64,000 bases of DNA. Source: Candidatus Udaeobacter sp. Lineage in GTDB: Bacteria > Patescibacteriota > Patescibacteriia > Magasanikbacterales > GWA2-37-8. Both the position numbers and the translations under genes were made by a program. Numbering within the stretch: position 1 is the first letter of the stretch; each line of letters opens with the position of its first letter. Below the pieces are notes generated by a model, which saw only the letters and a program-made list of their open reading frames with translations, was not told the origin of the DNA and searched no databases. Positions 1 to 52,479 of this stretch are shown piece by piece. The DNA lies in contig DATION010000002.1 of assembly GCA_035473115.1 (NCBI GenBank), positions 105,368 to 169,367 on the forward strand. Reading direction: 5' to 3'.

Positions 1-2417
1 TGCTCGGCTAATCTGGCTTGAACTTGTTCCAGCTGCAATTCAACTATATTGGCGATGTTTTTTTCAGTTAAAGAATGGAAAATAATTACATCATCAATAC
101 GATTTAAAAATTCCGGTTTGAAATGTTCACGCAAACCTTCCATAATTTTTTCGCGCATATTTTTTTCGCCGTTTTTATTTTCCGAACCGGCAAAACCAAA
201 TTCGCTTTTTTTGTTCCAATCCAAAATTAAACTGCTGCCAATATTACTGGTCATAATCACGACTGTATTTTTAAAGTTCACAGTTCGGCCTTTGGCATCG
301 GTCACATGGCCGTCATCCAGAATTTGCAACAAAATATTAAAGACATCCGGATGAGCTTTTTCGATTTCATCAAACAGTATTACCGAATAAGGTTTGCGGC
401 GCACGATTTCTGTCAGTTGACCGCCTTCTTCGTAGCCAACATAACCGGGAGGGGAGCCGATAATTTTGGAAGTGGAATGTTTTTCCATATATTCACTCAT
501 GTCTACCCGCACCAAAGCATCTTGAGTATCAAACATAAATTCAGCTAGCGATTTGGCTAATTCGGTTTTGCCTACGCCAGTTGGCCCCAAAAATATAAAT
601 GAACCGATCGGACGGTTAGGCTCGGCAATACCGGCGCGAGAACGGCGGATAGCGTTGGCTACAGCTTTGACCGCTTCTTCTTGACCAACTACTCGTTTGG
701 CCAGTTCGCTTTCCATATTAACCAATTTGTCGGCTTCGCCAAGCAGCATTTTGTAAACCGGAATACCAGTCCAGCGCGAAACTACTCTGGCAATATCTTG
801 ATCTGTAACTTCTTCTTTCAGAATGCCGCTGCTTTTTTGCAGTTCAATTAATTTTTTCTCTTCCTGACGGATTTCCGCTTCTAAGTTTGGGATTTTTCCA
901 TATCTAATCTCGGCCACTTTTTGCAAGTCACCCTTTCTTTCTTCAATTTCCGCTTTTTGGCGGATTTCTTCAATTTCTTTTTTATGTTTATGAATGCCGG
1001 TAATTATTTCTTTTTCATTTCGCCAACGCGCTTCCAGTTCGGTGCTTTTATCTTTCAATTCGGCTAAATCTTTTTCTAATTTTACCAAGCGTTCCTTGGC
1101 TTCTTTGTCTTCTTCTTTTTTTAAAGCGCGTTTTTCAATTTCTAACTTGATCATCGCGCGTTTCATTTTATCCAGTTCATCTGGCATTGAATCTATCTGC
1201 ATGCGCAGAGCCGAAGTGGCTTCGTCGATTAAATCAATTGCTTTATCTGGTAGAAAACGATCGGAAATATAGCGGGTAGACAGATCAACCGCTGCCAAAA
1301 TAGCTGAGTCAGTAATGCGCACACCATGATGCACTTCATATTTTTCTTTAATACCGCGCAAAATTGCTACGGCGTCGTCGCGTGTTGGTTCACTAACCAT
1401 TACCGGTTGGAAACGACGTTCCAAAGCCGCATCTTTTTCAATATATTTTTGGTATTCTTTCAGAGTTGTAGCGCCAATAGCGTGGAGTGTGCCGCGAGCC
1501 AGCGCCGGTTTGAGCATATTAGAAGCATCCATTGAGCCTTCGGAAGATCCGGCGCCAACAATGATATGCAATTCATCAATAAATAAAATTATTTTGCCGG
1601 CTGATTCATCAATTTCTTTTAAAACAGCTTTTAAACGATCTTCAAATTCACCGCGGAATTTTGTGCCAGCCAGTAGGGAACCGATATCCAAAGAAATAAC
1701 CTGTTTATTTTTTAAAGATTCAGGCACATCGCCATTAACGATTCTTTGCGCCAAACCTTCGGCAATAGCTGTTTTGCCAGTGCCGGGTTCGCCGATAAGC
1801 ACCGGATTATTTTTGGTGCGGCGAGTCAAAATTTGCATCACGCGGCGAATTTCATCATCTCGGCCAATAACCGGATCAAGTTTTTCTTTAAATGCCAGGT
1901 CGGTTAAGTTTTTGCCGTATTTTTCTAAAACGTTATATTTGCTTTCTGGTTCTGGGCTGTCTACTTTTTGCGTACCGCGAATTCCAGCTAGGATTTTTAA
2001 AGTTTCGTCATAGTTTACATTGTTTAAAGCCAGAAGTTCGGCAATAGGATTATGTCCGGTAAAAAATGCTAAAAACAGATGTTCAACGCTAATATATTCA
2101 TCTCCCATTTTTTTAGCTTCGCCAACGGCAATTTGAAAAATATAGAGCATGCTTTGACTAAGCAAAATTTGGCCAATGCCGCCGGTTGGCACAGAATTTT
2201 TAGGAAGTTTGTCTATCAAAGACTGGGCGCCAGCTTTTAAGCCAATAATATTTACATTAAACTTGCGTAAAATAGAAACTACTACGCCTTCGGTGTCTTC
2301 AAGCAAAGCAAAAAACAGATGAGGCGGTTCTATCTGGCCATGGCCATTTTCATAGGCAATTTTGGCCGCATTTTGAATAATTTCTTGGGATTTGTTGGTA
2401 AAATTTTGGGGGATCAT
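1..2417 (-). CDS. clpB: ClpB chaperone (AAA+ disaggregase), 5' portion; the 3' end lies beyond the window start
   Basis: Minus-strand translation from the ATG at 2417 gives the Clp N-domain, a Walker A motif (GEPGTGKT), a long coiled-coil M-domain and a second AAA module (GPTGVGKTE). The listed + strand ORFs at 49-2013 are shadow ORFs of this gene. Confidence 0.9.
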
Positions 2418-13891: not shown

Positions 13892-13952
13892 ATATAAATT
13901 ATGTCGCTTAATATAATACCATTTTTACTAATACAGCTCAACTAGAAAAATA

Positions 13953-13979
13953 TTGACTTTTTATTATAAATTTTATAAT
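13953..13979 (+). promoter_or_regulatory. Putative promoter of GC-rich cassette 1 (TTGACT-N15-TATAAT)
   Basis: Sequence match. It is followed by AGGAGG at 13988-13993, 9 nt before the ATG at 14003. Confidence 0.35.
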
Positions 13980-14002
13980 CTCTAATAAGGAGGATATGAC
14001 AA

Positions 14003-14302
14003 ATGAGAGATTATTCACGTGGAGAGGCCAGAAACATTCGACGCCTAAAGGCTGGGTTGGTCCGAACGCCTAGCGGAAAATTGGTTCGGACGAAAAATCC
14101 AGTCACCAGGAGGCGCTCGCGCTCAAAAAACAATGGCTATTGGGAGTGTACCGCTATGGTGAGCAGGAGAGCCGCTTCAACCTGGTCATCGGGCTTTGTT
14201 CATCACTACCTGCCGTGCTTTACTCGGAACAGCGCTCAAGAAGCAAGGTGTTCCAGCTGCAAACAGCCCAGAACAGCGCGCAATGAGATCAAGTTTGATT
14301 AA
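14003..14302 (+). CDS. GC-rich orphan small ORF 1 (99 aa, very basic, Arg-rich); could instead be a structured ncRNA
   Basis: Local GC about 50 % against about 33 % for the genome. Strong Shine-Dalgarno site and own promoter. No family recognised, and its codon usage is atypical for this genome. Confidence 0.35.
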   Translation: MRDYSRGEARNIRRLKAGLVRTPSGKLVRTKNPVTRRRSRSKNNGYWECTAMVSRRAASTWSSGFVHHYLPCFTRNSAQEARCSSCKQPRTARNEIKFD

Positions 14303-14338
14303 GAACGCCTAGTAAGAGTTGTGCGTTCTTACAGCAAA

Positions 14339-14410
14339 AACCATTCGTAGTTCAACCTTAGTTCTTAAAATAAGAATTGAGGTGGAGGATAGTTTACGAA
14401 TGGTTTTTTG
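14339..14410 (+). terminator. Hairpin terminator of cassette 1
   Basis: 11-bp stem (AACCATTCGTA / TACGAATGGTT) enclosing a nested TTCTTA-AAA-TAAGAA hairpin and followed by a run of six Ts. A second hairpin, AGAACGC...GCGTTCT, lies at 14303-14329. Confidence 0.5.
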
Positions 14411-14506
14411 TTTTGAGTGTTATTATTATTTTTTCTAATTGAAATATATTGCAAAAGCATTTATACTATAGCTTAAAGTAGGTTTTTAAAGTAAATAAAG
14501 TAAATT

Positions 14507-46023: not shown

Positions 46024-47103
46024 TTATTTTATTACCAAAGATTGTCGTATTTCTTCGGCGTTTCGCAGCTGTCCGCAAGCAGCAGCAATATCTTGGCCTT
46101 GAGAATAACGCACGGTAGAAGTAAAACCGGCATTCATAAGCGAAGTATGCCAGTGTTCAATATTTTCTTTTGGCGACTCATCAAAATCCGAAGGCATGGC
46201 CACGGTAGAAATATTGTTATATGGAATTAAATTTATTTTTATCTTTCCTAATTTTGAAGCTAGAGTCATCAGCGCTTTTAAATCTTTTGGTCCGTCATTA
46301 ACTTTACCAAGCATAATATATTCCAAACCAATAAAATGGGCTCGGCTAGGGTGCATCTGGTGATACTTTTTGGCCCAGCCAACCAAGTATTCCAAAAATC
46401 CTTTTTGGTGCGAAGGCATGATGGCAGCGCGAGTTTCTTCGATGGCGCTATGCAAAGATAAAGCAAAACGGACTGGTGGAAAATCTTTGTCTACAGCCAA
46501 TTTATCCATCATCACTGGAATACCACAGGTAGATAAAGTAATTTTGCTTGGACCAAGAGTGGTATATTTTAAAATAATATTTAAAGCAGTTTTGATGTTT
46601 TCGTAATTGAGCAGCGGTTCACCCTGGCCCATGATTACCATATTATCTATTTCGCCCAAATTCCTTTCTGCCAAAAATCTTTGCCAAAAACGATATTGAT
46701 CCACAACTTCTTCGGGAGTTAAATTTCGAGAAAATCCAGCTTTGCCAGTAGCACAAAAAGCGCATTTCATGCCGCAGCCGACTTGCGAAGAAATACAGAT
46801 AGTATAACGATCGCGACCACCCGCAGCGGTTAAGTTTTTTCTGCCCATTAATACAGCTTCAATTAATCGGTCATCAGATAATTTCAATAAAGCTTTTTTG
46901 GTATTATCTTTTTTACTCTCATGCATCACATGCAAGCGCAGGGATAGCCAAGGTTTATCTTTCAATTTTTCTCGCAATTCTTTTGGTAAAGTGGTAATTT
47001 TTTCGTAACTATCTACTTTCGCGTCAAACCAGGCTCGGAACACTTGGTCCTGCCTGAATTTCTTTTCCGTAGATAAAATTTGTAATAAGTCTATTTCTGC
47101 CAT
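46024..47103 (-). CDS. rlmN: 23S rRNA (adenine2503-C2)-methyltransferase RlmN (radical SAM)
   Basis: CGMKCAFCATG radical-SAM motif and the RlmN/Cfr family pattern. The start was set at the ATG at 47103; the ORF-track start at 47142 is a TTG. Confidence 0.8.
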   Translation of the reverse strand: MAEIDLLQILSTEKKFRQDQVFRAWFDAKVDSYEKITTLPKELREKLKDKPWLSLRLHVMHESKKDNTKKALLKLSDDRLIEAVLMGRKNLTAAGGRDRYTICISSQVGCGMKCAFCATGKAGFSRNLTPEEVVDQYRFWQRFLAERNLGEIDNMVIMGQGEPLLNYENIKTALNIILKYTTLGPSKITLSTCGIPVMMDKLAVDKDFPPVRFALSLHSAIEETRAAIMPSHQKGFLEYLVGWAKKYHQMHPSRAHFIGLEYIMLGKVNDGPKDLKALMTLASKLGKIKINLIPYNNISTVAMPSDFDESPKENIEHWHTSLMNAGFTSTVRYSQGQDIAAACGQLRNAEEIRQSLVIK

Positions 47104-47146
47104 ATTCGGGCTAAGTATGCCACAGTTTTGCTGTTTTGGCAATATG

Positions 47147-47175
47147 TTGACGGGAATTTTTTTTCGAAGTATATT
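47147..47175 (+). promoter_or_regulatory. Putative promoter of GC-rich cassette 2 (TTGACG-N17-TATATT)
   Basis: Sequence match. An AAAGGAG Shine-Dalgarno site lies 6 nt before the ATG at 47220. Confidence 0.35.
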
Positions 47176-47219
47176 TAAGAAGCGAAAAGTGCTTCATCAA
47201 CAAATTAAAGGAGAATTTA

Positions 47220-47450
47220 ATGGCCACAAGCCATAAAGTCGAGAGTTTCGACTTCGAGGCAGCAGAGCCTGGAGCTGAACAAGATTCTCACACTCCTGAA
47301 CAACACCTAAACCTGACAATCTTGTGCGACCTTGCAGATCGCAAGGCACCTATAGCTGAAATCAGGGTCTATACAGATCCCAGAGCAGCGCATATTTCCC
47401 ATTGCGAAAAGTGCCAAAATGCCCTAGGCTTCTACAAAATTTCGTTTTAG
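47220..47450 (+). CDS. GC-rich orphan small ORF 2 (76 aa, acidic)
   Basis: About 48 % GC. Strong Shine-Dalgarno site. An 8-bp stem hairpin (AGTATGCT...AGCATACT) overlaps the stop. No recognised family. Confidence 0.3.
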   Translation: MATSHKVESFDFEAAEPGAEQDSHTPEQHLNLTILCDLADRKAPIAEIRVYTDPRAAHISHCEKCQNALGFYKISF

Positions 47451-47525
47451 TATGCTGCTAACTAAGCATACTTGGAGGTTTGCGGCTCCTGAACAGGTAA
47501 AACTGATTTAGGGGCTTTTTCATTT

Positions 47526-49760
47526 TTACTCTAAAGCTCTTAAAATCTTTTCTTTAATATCTACTGAAGTCATCCCAGCTAACTCATATACCTCAGCCAC
47601 ATTACCGGATTTTAAATAATGGTTTATACCCAAAGCTTTTTTAGAATAATCCGCTGGTAACATAAATGGATACAAAAATCCTGGCCAACCATTATGCAAA
47701 GTAATTACTAATTCCCTTTCTTCATCTGATAAAATACTTTTCGCTTTAGTTGGATTAGTTTTTTGTAAATCTTCAAATAATTCCGGGGAAGTAACAGCTA
47801 TAATTTTTATATCTAATCCTTGCTTTTCCAGTTCAGGCAAAACTTCTAAAGTATTTAACAAAATTTGCATACCGCAAATTGCTAAAACCGTCTTTTTGCC
47901 TTTACCAGAGAATTGTTTATAAACATAAGCGCCATTATTGGCTTCTATGGCCGCTGGCACTTCAGCACGCTTTATTACCGGCTGTTCCGGCCGGTAAAGA
48001 GACAGAATAATTGGCTCACCTTTTTCTAAAGCGCCAAACAGCATTTCTATAGTTTCATTGGCATCTGTTGGTTTATATACTTTTATTCCCGGCAAAGCAT
48101 TATAAAGAGACATCCAATACATTCCTTGGTGGGTTGGACCATCTTCGCCAGTTTCCGGGCCGTCGTGGGCAGCCAAAGCAATAAAAAAGCCTTTGGTTTC
48201 GGGATTAAGTTGATTACCAATTACCGCCAAGCGAATCGCATTGCCCATCATATTGGTAAAAACGGCAAAAGTACCAAAGACCGAAACTGGTTTGTATCCG
48301 CCCGGCAAAATATCTTGCGTCAGTCCGGCGCCCATCATGGCCATATTTTGTTCAGCAATGCCATAGCGAATACCGCGGCCCAGTGGATTATTTTTGGAAA
48401 TCAATCCATAAACTTCTTCGGCAGAATTGGTATAAACAGATTTAGCCAAATCTCCGGCTCCAGCATAAAAAAAGGCGGTCTGTTTCATATACCAAGCCAT
48501 CCAGGCTTGCACAGCTTTGCGAGTAGCTACTTTTTCGCCTTCGGCAAAAACTAATTCCGGCGGCAAAACTTTTGGCCGTTTTATAGCTAGAGGATCAACC
48601 ATTGGTCGGCCGCGCAAAGCTTTTTTCATTTTTTCTACCAAAATTGATTCTGGCACAATTTTCTGCGCGCCGACTTCTAATCTTTCCAAAATATATTTTT
48701 CATCTTCTGGATTAATTTGCGCCAAAACAGTTTGAATATCCGGCAATACTTTCCCCGGTTCGCCAGCAATATTAAAGCCTAATTTTTTCATTATATTTAC
48801 ATAATCATCGTGCTTGGCCAGAGTACTGTGGGCAGCGGCAGTATTTTCAGTCTTGCCATAACTTTTAGCTTTTAAAGTATGACAGATAACTACCGTCGGC
48901 GCGCCATTGGCAAACCCTTGCGCAGCCAACTGATAGGCATAAACCATTTCCAAAACATTATGCCCGTTGGTTTCTATAACATTCCAACCCAAACCCAGCC
49001 AATGATTAATATATGGCGAAGCCACAACTTCTTCTATTTCATCATCGATGCCAAAATGATTATAATCTAAACTGACAATTAAATTTTTTAAGCCGTTGGT
49101 AGCAATGATATTTCGCGCTTCATAGGTCATACCTTCTTCGCTTTCGGCATCGCCCATAAATACCCAAGTTTTGGTATCCAAGCCGCAAGACTGGTGTACC
49201 ATAGCCATTCCGCCAGCTACAGCAAACCCGTGCCCCAACGGGCCGGTAGTAAAATCAGAATATGGATATTGGGCTTCGGCATGGCCTTGCGGGCCATCAG
49301 CATGACGAAAACGAATCAGGTCTTCAGGCATGACTGCTTTTACTACTGCTTCGCCAAATTGGCGGCCAGCCCGTTTTAAAACTTCGTAATATAAGGCTTG
49401 TCCGGCAAAAAGCAGATCAGCGCAATGGCCTGAACTCCAAATTAATCTGTCTCGACCAGGATTTTTGGGGTTGGTTGGATCAAAGGCCATTACTCCACTT
49501 AGTGTCATGGCCAAAAATTGCTCCACCTTGCTGCTGCTGCCCGGATGACCGGATTGTCCGGCTTCGACAGCAGCAAAAATAAGGCCGCGAATAATTTTGG
49601 CTAGTTTGTCTAATCTAGGAACATCTATGCCGTCTATGGAAGCCAGATCTAAATCTTCGATATTTAAATACTGCCCGCTCTGGACAGAATATTGCAAAAG
49701 GTTTTTTTCTTTCTTTTTAAAATCTGCCATTCCTTTTTTGTCTAGGAGGTTGTAGGGCAT
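47526..49760 (-). CDS. tkt: Transketolase (long form, 744 aa)
   Basis: TPP-binding N-terminal domain (GHPGSS..), pyrimidine-binding domain and C-terminal domain. Confidence 0.85.
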   Translation of the reverse strand: MPYNLLDKKGMADFKKKEKNLLQYSVQSGQYLNIEDLDLASIDGIDVPRLDKLAKIIRGLIFAAVEAGQSGHPGSSSKVEQFLAMTLSGVMAFDPTNPKNPGRDRLIWSSGHCADLLFAGQALYYEVLKRAGRQFGEAVVKAVMPEDLIRFRHADGPQGHAEAQYPYSDFTTGPLGHGFAVAGGMAMVHQSCGLDTKTWVFMGDAESEEGMTYEARNIIATNGLKNLIVSLDYNHFGIDDEIEEVVASPYINHWLGLGWNVIETNGHNVLEMVYAYQLAAQGFANGAPTVVICHTLKAKSYGKTENTAAAHSTLAKHDDYVNIMKKLGFNIAGEPGKVLPDIQTVLAQINPEDEKYILERLEVGAQKIVPESILVEKMKKALRGRPMVDPLAIKRPKVLPPELVFAEGEKVATRKAVQAWMAWYMKQTAFFYAGAGDLAKSVYTNSAEEVYGLISKNNPLGRGIRYGIAEQNMAMMGAGLTQDILPGGYKPVSVFGTFAVFTNMMGNAIRLAVIGNQLNPETKGFFIALAAHDGPETGEDGPTHQGMYWMSLYNALPGIKVYKPTDANETIEMLFGALEKGEPIILSLYRPEQPVIKRAEVPAAIEANNGAYVYKQFSGKGKKTVLAICGMQILLNTLEVLPELEKQGLDIKIIAVTSPELFEDLQKTNPTKAKSILSDEERELVITLHNGWPGFLYPFMLPADYSKKALGINHYLKSGNVAEVYELAGMTSVDIKEKILRALE

Positions 49761-49780: not shown

Positions 49781-51145
49781 CTATATTTCAAACTCTCTAA
49801 AATATTTTCTAAATCTATGATTATTCATCTCCATTCTATGAAAATATTTATCCGAAAACCCATCTTTATTTGAATGTTTTAGCAGCACCATATAAGAATC
49901 ATTCATTCTTTCAAAAAAACGTATCAAAAAACTCATCTGCTCTTTTGTTAATTTTCCACTATCCACAGTTTCCATAAATCTTCTTTGCATTCGTTCTTGT
50001 AGCATAAACAACTCTTCAAGCATCATCGGATGAGGTCTTTCTTCATGAGAAAAATGTTCTATAAAGTGCAGAACTCGTTCCTGGTTTCTATTAAATTCAA
50101 TAAAAAAATCATCATCTAAATTTAACTGTTTAACAAGATGCTGTAACTCTTCGCCTAACATTCCTTGCTGCATGATAAACTCATGAAATAAAGGATGTTT
50201 AAAATCTCTTGAGTGTAAGATCTTATGAACAACATAATTTCTTTCTTCTAAAGATTTAACTCTTTTGACATCTTGGAGGATTTTTTTATCAACTATTTGT
50301 TTGTAATACTCACCAGCAAGTTCTAAAAATTTTTCTGGGTCATACATATGAAAATCTACACCCGCCTTATCTTGAATTTCTTTTTTTAATTCATGCCTAG
50401 GCCCTATAACAGTTCCAGATTGTATCCACCACCAATCTTCTTTTTTATCTCTAGTAATAAAAATTATCGGTTTTTTTAACTCATTGGCCTTATCAATAAT
50501 TTGGTACCATAAAATCAAATCACCATATTCACGTTCATTATCTTTTGATGCATCTTTATAACCAGGAGGAACGTCATTTGAATATCTTTCTTTTCCTTCT
50601 TTATATATTTCGTCAAGTTTTTCCTTAAGGTATTCTTCACCAATACTATCTTTAAAAATCTTATTTAATTCACCTAAAATATTATCTTTATTAACCCAAT
50701 CTGGATGAGATTTTTCATTTTTATTAATACTGAGAGTAATCTTTTTTAAACAGCTATCTAATTCATTGCTAATTTCTTTAAGGTCTAAAAATGGATGTTC
50801 CTTGTGATACTTATCCTCAATTTTCTTTTGAGCATCCTTAATAGAGGTGTCTAAAATAGACCTTATTTTAGAGTAAGAATTTTTTAAATCAGCTATTTGA
50901 ATTATTCTTCTTTTATGAAACTCTAAGCCCACTTGATGCGGGATCCATATTCTATTTTCATCTTTAATTTTTTTAAGAATACCAATATATTTATCCGAGG
51001 TAGTATTGTTATACCTGTACAAGTCAAGCAAAACATTCGTGTCAAACACAAATACACACTCCTGCCATATTTTTTTTATTTCAGCATCAGAATACTTATA
51101 AAATTCTTTAAACTTATTCTTCATACGGCTTTTCATTAATAACAT
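49781..51145 (-). CDS. Orphan protein with an N-terminal PIN-like nuclease domain and a roughly 280-aa helical C-terminal region
   Basis: The VFVFDTNVLLDLYRY start is typical of PIN domains. Later ...IFITRD... provides further acidic residues. The C-terminal half is not recognisable. Confidence 0.5.
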   Translation of the reverse strand: MLLMKSRMKNKFKEFYKYSDAEIKKIWQECVFVFDTNVLLDLYRYNNTTSDKYIGILKKIKDENRIWIPHQVGLEFHKRRIIQIADLKNSYSKIRSILDTSIKDAQKKIEDKYHKEHPFLDLKEISNELDSCLKKITLSINKNEKSHPDWVNKDNILGELNKIFKDSIGEEYLKEKLDEIYKEGKERYSNDVPPGYKDASKDNEREYGDLILWYQIIDKANELKKPIIFITRDKKEDWWWIQSGTVIGPRHELKKEIQDKAGVDFHMYDPEKFLELAGEYYKQIVDKKILQDVKRVKSLEERNYVVHKILHSRDFKHPLFHEFIMQQGMLGEELQHLVKQLNLDDDFFIEFNRNQERVLHFIEHFSHEERPHPMMLEELFMLQERMQRRFMETVDSGKLTKEQMSFLIRFFERMNDSYMVLLKHSNKDGFSDKYFHRMEMNNHRFRKYFREFEI

Positions 51146-52182: not shown

Positions 52183-52479
52183 ATGAGCCAAAATCTTGAT
52201 CTGGGCGTACGCCTCGATCTTGCGGCCATGCTTTCCCAGCGCGCCGCAACAAACGATCCCAAGAGCCGAATCAGCTCAAGGGAGATAGCTCGCGAAGAAG
52301 CTCGCGAGTATGACAAATTGAGGAATTCTGCAGAACGAGCCAGCATGGATCTTTATGACAGCCAGGCAACGTTTGCAGATCCGGAACATCGAGAACTATT
52401 GAGAAAAAAACAAAGGGCAGACTATGCCTTAGACGTTTTTCTCAGAAACCTAATCTCGAAAAAGCGGCCTGGTAAATAG
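52183..52479 (+). CDS. GC-rich orphan small ORF 3 (98 aa, charged, predicted helical)
   Basis: About 52 % GC. Strong Shine-Dalgarno site and own promoter. It is followed by hairpins and a terminator. No recognised family. Confidence 0.4.
   Translation: MSQNLDLGVRLDLAAMLSQRAATNDPKSRISSREIAREEAREYDKLRNSAERASMDLYDSQATFADPEHRELLRKKQRADYALDVFLRNLISKKRPGK

What the first reader, a model, noticed from the sequence alone, without database searches (positions are those of the whole stretch)
47147..47520. GC-rich autonomous cassette 2 between rlmN and tkt
TTGACG-N17-TATATT precedes AAAGGAG and, 6 nt later, a 76-aa acidic ORF at about 48 % GC that ends in an 8-bp-stem hairpin. It occupies an unusually long intergenic gap of about 380 bp in an otherwise compact genome. 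It has the same architecture as cassettes 1 and 3, but the encoded proteins are unrelated.
Basis: seen in the sequence. Interest (0 to 1): 0.55.

Follow-up and report, generated by a model that had tools for sequence, protein, structure and literature searches.

The report
Orphan small cysteine-histidine protein gene
The long gap between rlmN and tkt holds a real, self-contained gene for a 76-residue protein with a likely metal-binding Cys/His motif; it occurs in only two related Parcubacteria-like genomes, so it is an ordinary lineage-specific accessory gene of unknown function, not a new kind of genetic element.

Summary
The actual terminator is a second, longer hairpin with a U-tract at 47484-47527. 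About 380 bp (47143-47525) is an indel. Six distinct relatives place the tkt stop codon 0-55 bp from rlmN. One relative (L005) carries a homologous small gene in the same slot and orientation, with promoter, Shine-Dalgarno site and terminator in the same places. Conservation is at the protein level: 47% identity over the C-terminal 47 residues, 12 of 22 identical residues use different codons, and the sense frame scores best in tblastx. It is therefore a real gene. The family has two members among about 15 billion proteins and reaches no curated Pfam cut-off, and it has no NCBIfam, PHROG, PADLOC, Rfam, PDB or fold match. The conserved part is a predicted helical domain with invariant C-x21-H-x3-C-x2-C. 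This resembles the zinc anti-sigma (ZAS) motif, but my control shows the resemblance is confined to the motif. GC richness is modest, acidity is not conserved, and the "cassette class" is just generic gene architecture. Interest is low to moderate.

The parts
47143..47525 (.). Lineage-specific segment (about 380 bp) between the rlmN promoter and the tkt stop codon. Absent from six distinct relatives.
   Evidence: Alignment A1. tblastn coordinates of the tkt C-terminus and rlmN N-terminus in L002, L003/L006, L004, L007, L008 and L009 give gaps of 0-55 bp.
47147..47175 (+). Sigma-70-type promoter TTGACG-N17-TATATT, back to back with the rlmN -35 box.
   Evidence: The same position in L005 reads TTGACC-N17-TATATT, with 12 identical bases AAGTATATTTAA around the -10. 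The match alone is no better than chance.
47207..47213 (+). Shine-Dalgarno sequence AAAGGAG, 6 nt before the ATG.
   Evidence: L005 has AAGGAG 7 nt before its ATG.
47220..47450 (+). 76-aa ORF, stop codon included: MATSHKVESFDFEAAEPGAEQDSHTPEQHLNLTILCDLADRKAPIAEIRVYTDPRAAHISHCEKCQNALGFYKISF
   Evidence: Called as a gene on Logan contig SRR9656165_923322. Its homolog P0002 sits in the same slot in L005.
47220..47303 (+). Variable N-terminal tail (residues 1-28). Predicted disordered, and not alignable with the ortholog.
   Evidence: pLDDT is below 50 over most of residues 1-24. Alignment A2. Overall pI is 5.4 against 9.5 in the ortholog.
47304..47444 (+). Conserved C-terminal domain (residues 29-75), predicted to be four short helices.
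   Evidence: BLASTP gives 22/47 identical residues, E 7e-14. 12 of the 22 identical residues use different codons, and differences by codon position are 17/20/32. Helices are predicted in equivalent positions in both models.
47325..47327 (+). Codon of Cys36, a candidate distal metal ligand. It is invariant.
   Evidence: Alignment A2. All three Cys of the protein are conserved in P0002.
47391..47414 (+). Codons of His58-x3-Cys62-x2-Cys65 (HISHCEKC), the most conserved block.
   Evidence: hhalign places this block on the HxxxCxxC of the ZAS domains.
47449..47472 (+). First hairpin: 8-bp stem, 8-nt loop. It overlaps the stop codon, has no U-tract, and has no counterpart in L005.
47484..47527 (+). 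Probable intrinsic terminator: a 13-bp stem with one bulge (47484-47516), then UUUUCAUUUUU, ending next to the tkt stop codon.
   Evidence: RNA fold, z = -4.7 for the 88 nt that also include the first hairpin. L005 has a 7-bp stem plus U6 at the homologous place. The simple terminator scan missed it because of the bulge.
47114..47142 (-). Context: the rlmN promoter TTGCCA-N17-(TG)GCATACT. It is conserved in relatives and marks the edge of the inserted segment.
   Evidence: blastn hits of this stretch in L002, L003, L007 and L012.

Best explanation
The gap holds a genuine, independently transcribed small protein gene. It is restricted to a narrow lineage of Parcubacteria-like (Patescibacteria) bacteria.

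Origin. Either the gene entered the junction between the tkt stop codon and the rlmN promoter once, or it was lost cleanly from relatives. It has since evolved quickly.

Transcription. It is read from its own sigma-70-type promoter, which lies back to back with the rlmN promoter. Transcription runs towards the end of tkt and stops at a hairpin with a U-tract.

Product. The protein has a variable, disordered N-terminal tail and a compact helical domain of about 45 residues. That domain carries the invariant pattern Cys-x21-His-x3-Cys-x2-Cys.

Inferred mechanism. I infer that these residues chelate one metal ion, most likely zinc. I also infer that the protein acts as a small cytoplasmic binding or regulatory protein, possibly thiol- or redox-sensitive in the manner of zinc-associated anti-sigma domains. 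Its partner is unidentified.

Shown versus inferred. Shown: the gene architecture, the indel, the synteny, and conservation at the protein level. Inferred: expression, metal binding, and any regulatory role.

Likelihoods. Real protein-coding gene, about 0.85. Metal-binding domain, about 0.5. ZAS-like regulatory function, about 0.15.
For: Anatomy:
- Promoter, SD, ATG, ORF and two hairpins are all read in the sequence.

Indel:
- Six distinct relatives (L002, L003=L006, L004, L007, L008, L009) have tkt and rlmN 0-55 bp apart. The conserved rlmN promoter sits directly after the tkt stop codon.

Ortholog:
- A full HMMER scan of 1.84 billion representative proteins returns only the protein itself and P0002, with E 1.2e-4 for the whole library.
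- P0002 lies between rlmN and tkt on the opposite strand in L005. The flanking proteins there are 84% and 86% identical to those of the window.
- Promoter, SD and terminator sit at homologous places.

Coding signature:
- 22 of 47 residues are identical, and 12 of those use different codons.
- Codon-position differences are 17/20/32.
- In tblastx the sense frame scores 55 bits against 35 bits for the best antisense frame. blastn aligns only the promoter region and the motif region.

Domain:
- All three Cys, plus His29 and His58, are invariant.
- Two independent AlphaFold models give helices at equivalent positions, with the CxxC at the start of the last helix. pLDDT is about 70-82 in the domain.
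- hhalign against an alignment of five ZAS domains, each checked against its PDB entry, gives probability 78% and E 1.9e-5, and aligns HxxxCxxC.
- The ZAS motif and its zinc ligands are as described for RslA, RsrA and ChrR in PMC2877774.
Against: - Codon usage of the ORF scores -0.238. That is lower than any of 3000 in-frame 76-codon fragments of the window's genes, and no better than one of its own antisense frames.
- The ORF is not among NCBI proteins, although the neighbouring 98-aa ORF of the same genome is. The deposited annotation did not call it.
- Only two sequences exist, so dN/dS cannot be estimated (dS is saturated) and covariation cannot be assessed.
- The ZAS resemblance is confined to the motif. 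With the 8-residue motif block kept and all other columns shuffled, hhalign still scores 23.3 +/- 2.4 against 24.8 for the real alignment.
- Pfam zf-HC2 is not reported even at E <= 10.
- No sigma-factor gene is adjacent or detectable in the window by tblastn.
- There are no expression data.
Confidence: 0.6

Rival explanations
1. The ORF is not translated. The segment is either a small non-coding or antisense RNA gene, whose transcript opposes read-through from tkt into rlmN, or simply non-functional inserted DNA that happens to be open.
For: - Codon usage is indistinguishable from that of non-coding frames.
- An ORF of this length arises in 8.9% of shuffles of the gap.
- The predicted transcript folds better than shuffles: z = -3.2 for the whole transcript and -2.7 without the terminators.
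- tkt has no terminator of its own, so antisense overlap with tkt read-through is plausible (minus-strand fold).
- The ORF is not annotated in the NCBI record.
Against: - Both orthologs keep an open frame with an SD at the correct distance, even though the DNA is too diverged for blastn outside two short patches.
- More than half of the conserved residues are encoded by different codons.
- The sense frame is the best tblastx frame.
- The L005 transcript has no unusual folding energy, z = -1.3.
- There is no Rfam match.
Confidence: 0.12
2. It is a remnant or passenger of a mobile or defence-related element (phage, toxin-antitoxin module or miniature transposon) dropped into a variable slot, with no role of its own in the host.
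For: - The slot upstream of rlmN varies between relatives. There is a HicB/HicA-like pair in L011, a HicB-like gene in L010, and a different small gene in L012.
- A low-GC PIN_8 gene lies just beyond tkt.
- GC content and codon usage are atypical.
Against: - There are no terminal inverted or direct repeats, no target-site duplication and no second copy in the window.
- There are no hits in PHROGs, PADLOC, phage genomes, plasmids or viral contigs.
- There is no partner gene for a toxin-antitoxin pair.
- The gene has persisted long enough for silent sites to saturate while the domain was kept.
Confidence: 0.1
3. It is an accessory metal or iron-sulfur/sulfur-relay micro-protein that serves the neighbouring cysteine desulfurase, ThiI and RlmN (radical SAM) genes.
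For: The evidence is context only. An Aminotran_5 cysteine desulfurase, ThiI and RlmN lie immediately upstream on the other strand. The protein has three invariant Cys and two invariant His.
Against: - The six distinct relatives with the same tkt-rlmN junction lack the gene; the cysteine desulfurase and ThiI genes were not examined in them.
- It is transcribed divergently from its own promoter.
- It has no similarity to any known Fe-S or sulfur-carrier family.
Confidence: 0.05

Closest known systems
Zinc-associated anti-sigma (ZAS) domains: Pfam zf-HC2; RsrA, RsiW, ChrR, RslA, DdvA
   Same: - It has an invariant H-x3-C-x2-C. The local sequence is very like RsiW and DdvA (HLETCEKC and HLADCEKC against HISHCEKC).
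- A conserved Cys or His lies upstream of the motif.
- The context is predicted to be helical, with the CxxC at the start of a helix.
- It is small and cytoplasmic.
   Different: - There is no Pfam zf-HC2 hit.
- The profile similarity disappears once the 8-residue motif is discounted.
- The distal ligand lies 22 or 29 residues upstream, not 25-27.
- The domain is about 45 residues, roughly half the length of the PDB constructs of ZAS anti-sigma domains used for comparison (80-108 residues).
- There is no neighbouring ECF sigma gene.
- There is no fold match.
Pfam DUF6510 (uncharacterised small bacterial proteins)
   Same: The best Pfam score falls here. Residues 33-69 match profile positions 26-61 of 86, with E 0.003-0.008. 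Overall protein size is similar.
   Different: The score is 16.5-18 bits against a gathering cut-off of 26.4. The ortholog P0002 gives no hit at all. No literature on the family is held.
Lineage-specific orphan (ORFan) small genes in variable intergenic slots of reduced candidate-phyla-radiation genomes
   Same: - It has a stand-alone promoter, SD and terminator.
- Composition and codon usage are atypical.
- Presence is patchy among close relatives.
- It has no homologs outside the lineage.
   Different: Here an ortholog in the same slot demonstrates selection on the protein, and the conserved part carries a recognisable metal-ligand pattern.

Membership tests
ZAS anti-sigma factor (zf-HC2) | Conserved H-x3-C-x2-C motif | tested here: met
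   His58-x3-Cys62-x2-Cys65 is invariant in both orthologs. The motif is defined in PMC2877774.
ZAS anti-sigma factor (zf-HC2) | Fourth (distal) Cys/His zinc ligand about 25-27 residues before the motif His | tested here: inconclusive
   Invariant Cys36 lies 22 residues before His58 and invariant His29 lies 29 before it. The distance is 25 in RslA and ChrR, 26 in RsrA and 27 in RsiW.
ZAS anti-sigma factor (zf-HC2) | Sequence-profile similarity of the domain beyond the motif | tested here: not met
   Pfam zf-HC2 is not reported at E <= 10. hhalign gives probability 78%, but the control with only the motif kept scores the same, 23.3 +/- 2.4 against 24.8.
ZAS anti-sigma factor (zf-HC2) | Anti-sigma-domain fold | tested here: inconclusive
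ZAS anti-sigma factor (zf-HC2) | Encoded next to or with its cognate ECF sigma factor | tested here: not met
   The neighbours are rlmN and tkt. tblastn with RpoE and a SigR-like sequence written from memory (not verified) finds nothing in the window. The rest of the genome was not available.
ZAS anti-sigma factor (zf-HC2) | Binds zinc and a sigma factor | not testable with these tools
   Needs purified protein.
Pfam DUF6510 | Score at or above the Pfam gathering cut-off (26.4 bits) | tested here: not met
   16.5 bits for the whole protein and 18.0 bits for the domain alone. P0002 gives no hit.
Known non-coding RNA families (Rfam 15) | Covariance-model match | tested here: not met
   No match at gathering scores anywhere in the window. 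Within 46900-47800 there are only chance-level hits, E >= 1.
Miniature transposon / insertion element | Terminal inverted repeats, target-site duplication, multiple copies | tested here: not met
   There are only short chance repeats. The junction sequence is not duplicated (alignment score 17 against a shuffle mean of 15). There is no second copy in the window or in the loci fetched.
Toxin-antitoxin or anti-phage defence gene | Match to a known toxin, antitoxin or defence family, or a two-gene module | tested here: not met
   The best Pfam matches (DUF6510, DUF1249) are not toxin, antitoxin or defence families, and PADLOC, PHROGs and NCBIfam show none. It is a single gene.

The most novel reading that the evidence does not exclude
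The two proteins found a previously undescribed family of minimal zinc/thiol-switch proteins restricted to candidate-phyla-radiation bacteria. In this reading the family converged on, or descends distantly from, the ZAS HxxxCxxC module. It would regulate RNA polymerase or the adjacent sulfur and radical-SAM RNA-modification enzymes without a dedicated ECF sigma partner. It might even have arisen de novo in the tkt-rlmN spacer.
Probability: 0.1. Interest if true: 0.55.

Novelty: new member of a known kind. Interest (0 to 1): 0.3.

Why it matters
If the reading is right, it adds one small, unannotated protein family with a probable metal site to the large pool of uncharacterised genes in reduced Patescibacteria genomes. 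The family has two members in about 15 billion sequences. It also shows that the deposited annotation of this genome misses at least one real small gene. The tkt-rlmN junction is a clean natural example of presence versus absence and could serve to study how small accessory genes are gained or lost. The finding does not reveal a new type of genetic element, and the three "cassettes" do not form a mechanistic class.

Tried and rejected
- Known RNA: Rfam at gathering scores on the whole window and at permissive E-values on the region gave nothing. tRNA/tmRNA search gave none.
- Protein families: Pfam, PHROGs, NCBIfam and PADLOC gave only sub-threshold DUF6510 and DUF1249 matches.
- Homologs: the word-index search with the protein and with the two-sequence profile returned only the two family members. 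Back-translated pattern scans of metagenome and viral contigs gave none. tblastn against phage and plasmid collections gave nothing credible.
- Solved structures by sequence: nothing.
- ZAS membership: the hhalign hit looked encouraging, but my shuffle control showed it is carried entirely by the 8-residue motif. I rejected it as evidence of homology.
- Mobile-element hallmarks and a duplicated rlmN promoter at the far end of the insert: not found.
- Gain versus loss: a neighbour-joining tree of 371 residues leaves window, L005 and the L002/L003/L007 clade unresolved. Window+L005 has 18% bootstrap support. So one gain, or one gain plus one loss, cannot be told apart.
- Apparent GC-rich gap at 355-1488: this was an artefact. 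A ClpB-like ORF on the minus strand runs off the window's start.

Full report
**1. What is in the sequence**

- TTGACG at 47147-47152, a 17-nt spacer, and TATATT at 47170-47175.
- AAAGGAG at 47207-47213, with the ATG at 47220 six bases later.
- A 76-codon ORF ending with TAG at 47448-47450.
- An 8-bp hairpin (AGTATGCT / AGCATACT) at 47449-47472.

Two corrections are needed.
- The true start of rlmN is the ATG at 47103, not the TTG at 47142 that the mechanical ORF list gives. This follows from the gene call and the alignment. The gap is therefore 422 bp (47104-47525).
- The 8-bp hairpin has no U-tract. A second hairpin at 47484-47516 has 13 pairs and one bulge and is followed by UUUUCAUUUUU. 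It ends beside the tkt stop codon and is the probable terminator. The 88-nt stretch that contains both hairpins folds with z = -4.7 against shuffles. The simple terminator scan missed the second hairpin because of the bulge.

**2. Is it more than chance?**

Taken one at a time, the features are only weakly unusual.
- Promoter-like sites with >=10/12 matches are as common in the window (44) as in shuffles (42.8 +/- 7.2) (one search agrees).
- An ORF of >=76 aa appears in 8.9% of shuffles of the gap, and one preceded by a Shine-Dalgarno core in 0.9%.
- The ORF is 0.472 GC, against a gene mean of 0.363. About 3.3% of all 231-bp windows reach that value, including stretches of tkt next door.

The case rests on comparison with other genomes.

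**3. Comparison with relatives**

RlmN and Tkt identify the organism as a Parcubacteria/Patescibacteria-like bacterium. The nearest genomes are "Parcubacteria group bacterium Gr01-1014_13" (L002), a Hainich groundwater Patescibacteria MAG (L003 = L006) and others.

*Relatives without the segment.* In six distinct relatives (L002, L003/L006, L004, L007, L008, L009) the tkt stop codon is 0-55 bp from the rlmN start. The alignment shows that the rlmN promoter TTGCCA-N17-TGGCATACT is conserved in L002 and L003 and follows the tkt stop codon directly. In the window about 380 bp (47143-47525) lie between the two. The -35 box of the new unit sits back to back with the rlmN -35 box.

*The one relative that has it.* A HMMER scan of 1.84 billion representative proteins found exactly one homolog. 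This is P0002, 89 aa, with E 1.2e-4 for the whole library. Word-index searches found the same two proteins and nothing else. P0002 is encoded on a 3.6-kb Logan contig (L005), between rlmN and tkt and on the opposite strand, which is the same slot and orientation.
- The flanking Tkt and RlmN of L005 are 84% and 86% identical to those of the window.
- L005 has TTGACC-N17-TATATT, with 12 identical bases around the -10.
- It has AAGGAG 7 nt before its ATG.
- It has a hairpin plus U6 at the homologous place.

*Gain or loss.* A tree from 371 residues places L004/L008/L009 as an outgroup clade (100% bootstrap) and L002/L003/L007 as a clade (84%). The relation of window and L005 to that clade is unresolved; window+L005 has 18% support. 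One gain, possibly followed by one loss, explains the distribution.

*Other relatives.* In L010, L011 and L012 the gene upstream of rlmN is not tkt. L011 has a HicB/HicA-like pair there and L010 a HicB-like gene, so the slot is generally variable.

**4. Coding or not**

Between window and L005, blastn aligns only the promoter region and the motif region. In tblastx the sense frame of the ORF gives the best score, 55 bits against 35 bits for the best antisense frame.

The C-terminal 47 residues are 47% identical, with BLASTP E 7e-14. Of the 22 identical residues, 12 use different codons. Differences by codon position are 17, 20 and 32 of 47. Silent sites are saturated, so dN/dS cannot be computed. 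For tkt, dN/dS between the same two genomes is 0.09. This is the pattern of selection on a protein.

Three points count against a typical native gene.
- The codon-usage score of the ORF (-0.238) is below all 3000 in-frame 76-codon fragments of the window's genes, whose mean is 0.27 with sd 0.15. It is no better than one antisense frame.
- The L005 ortholog scores +0.045, the best of its own six frames.
- The ORF is not among NCBI proteins, although the neighbouring 98-aa ORF of the same genome is.

The predicted transcript folds better than shuffles in the window (z = -3.2) but not in L005 (z = -1.3). No Rfam family matches. I put the probability that it is a real protein-coding gene at about 0.85.

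**5. The protein**

The N-terminal 28 residues do not align with the ortholog and are predicted to be disordered. They are acidic here, whereas the ortholog is basic overall: pI is 5.4 against 9.5. So "acidic" is not a property of the family.

Residues 29-75 form the conserved part. Two separate AlphaFold models place four short helices at equivalent positions, with pLDDT about 70-82 in the domain and a mean of 61-63 overall.

All three cysteines (C36, C62, C65) and two histidines (H29, H58) are invariant. This gives the pattern C-x21-H-x3-C-x2-C within the block A-x-H-I-S-x-C-E-K-C-Q-N. Four conserved metal-ligand-type residues arranged like this suggest a single metal site, most likely zinc. 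That is an inference.

**6. Comparison with known families**

*ZAS anti-sigma factors.* H-x3-C-x2-C is the signature of zinc-associated anti-sigma (ZAS) factors. In those, a distal Cys or His 25-27 residues upstream completes the zinc site (PMC2877774).
- I wrote out five ZAS domains from memory (RsrA, RsiW, ChrR, RslA, and DdvA from a hit). I confirmed each against its PDB sequence and aligned them.
- hhalign of the two-member domain profile against this alignment gives probability 78% and E 1.9e-5, with the motifs superposed.
- A control removes most of the meaning. If the eight motif columns are kept and all others shuffled, the score is 23.3 +/- 2.4, against 24.8 for the real alignment in the same local run. 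Full shuffling gives 9.0 +/- 2.1.
- Pfam zf-HC2 is not reported even at E <= 10.
- No sigma-factor gene is nearby.

So it may work like a ZAS module, but membership is not established.

*Other families.* The best Pfam score is to DUF6510, at 16.5-18 bits against a cut-off of 26.4, and the ortholog gives none. PHROGs, NCBIfam, PADLOC, phage and plasmid collections, viral contigs and metagenome pattern scans gave nothing.

**7. How it most likely works**

- *Shown:* it is a monocistronic unit on the strand opposite a long run of minus-strand housekeeping genes. Those include the ATP synthase genes, metG, a cysteine desulfurase gene, thiI, rlmN and tkt. It is present in two lineages and conserved as a protein.
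- *Inferred:* it is transcribed from its own promoter and terminated just before it would enter tkt. The product binds a metal through C36 (or H29), H58, C62 and C65. It acts as a small binding or regulatory protein, with a fast-evolving tail.
- tkt has no terminator of its own on the minus strand. Read-through from tkt would therefore be antisense to the small gene, which allows mutual interference. This is speculation.

**8. The "cassette" idea**

The other two GC-richer gaps hold ORFs at 14003..14302 (99 aa) and 52183..52479 (98 aa).
- They share no sequence with this one, and the window holds no second copy of any of the three gaps. Gap 2, the only one scanned for repeats, has no terminal repeats.
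- The 99-aa ORF has no frame-specific codon signal and is not in the protein collection.
- The 98-aa ORF is an annotated hypothetical protein.

The shared "architecture" is that of any stand-alone bacterial gene. The three do not form a class of elements, although all look compositionally foreign.

**9. Verdict**

This is an ordinary finding of some local interest: a real, unannotated, lineage-restricted small gene with a probable metal-binding domain and unknown function. It is not a new kind of system. Interest 0.3.

Noticed in passing
All close relatives of the window's tkt and rlmN that carry a phylum-level label are Parcubacteria/Patescibacteria MAGs; one further relative, L004, is labelled "uncultured Gammaproteobacteria bacterium". 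The Udaeobacter (Verrucomicrobiota) label therefore looks like a mis-binning or mislabelling.
   Followed up: partly
window 13892-14506 (ORF 14003-14302, +): A 615-bp GC-richer gap lies between divergent genes. It has a near-consensus promoter, AAGGAGG and a 99-aa Arg-rich ORF, followed by hairpins. The ORF shows no frame-specific codon signal and is not in the 15-billion-protein collection. Rfam finds nothing. It could be a spurious ORF or an undescribed RNA.
   Followed up: partly
L011 3527-3965; L010 2742-2960; L004 2802-3231; L012 545-895: The slot upstream of rlmN (or of tkt) varies among relatives. L011 and L004 have HicB/HicA-like toxin-antitoxin pairs, L010 has a HicB-like gene, and L012 has an unrelated 116-aa gene. 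The HicA/HicB names rest on my recognition of the sequences and were not tested.
   Followed up: no
window 47101-47142 (-): The conserved rlmN promoter TTGCCA-N17-TGGCATACT ends only 10 nt before the rlmN ATG, and no Shine-Dalgarno sequence is present. The rlmN mRNA from this promoter would be nearly leaderless. The same holds in L002 and L003.
   Followed up: no
window 49781-51145 (-): A 454-aa PIN_8 (PIN-like) protein gene at only about 0.28 GC forms a low-GC island directly beyond tkt. L002, L003 and L004, whose ORFs upstream of tkt were listed, have different ones there. It has no PADLOC match.
   Followed up: partly
window 1-2100 (-): A long ORF of at least 699 aa runs off the start of the window. 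I take it to be ClpB-like only because the opposite-strand translation LPTPVGP reads as the antisense of a Walker A motif; no family search was run on it. It explains why ORF listing shows an apparent GC-rich gap at 355-1488.
   Followed up: yes
window 47183-47447 (+): The coding part of the small gene's transcript folds more stably than shuffles, z = -2.7, with 0 of 200 shuffles as good. The L005 ortholog does not (z = -1.3 for its whole transcript). This is unexplained and may simply reflect the higher GC.
   Followed up: partly
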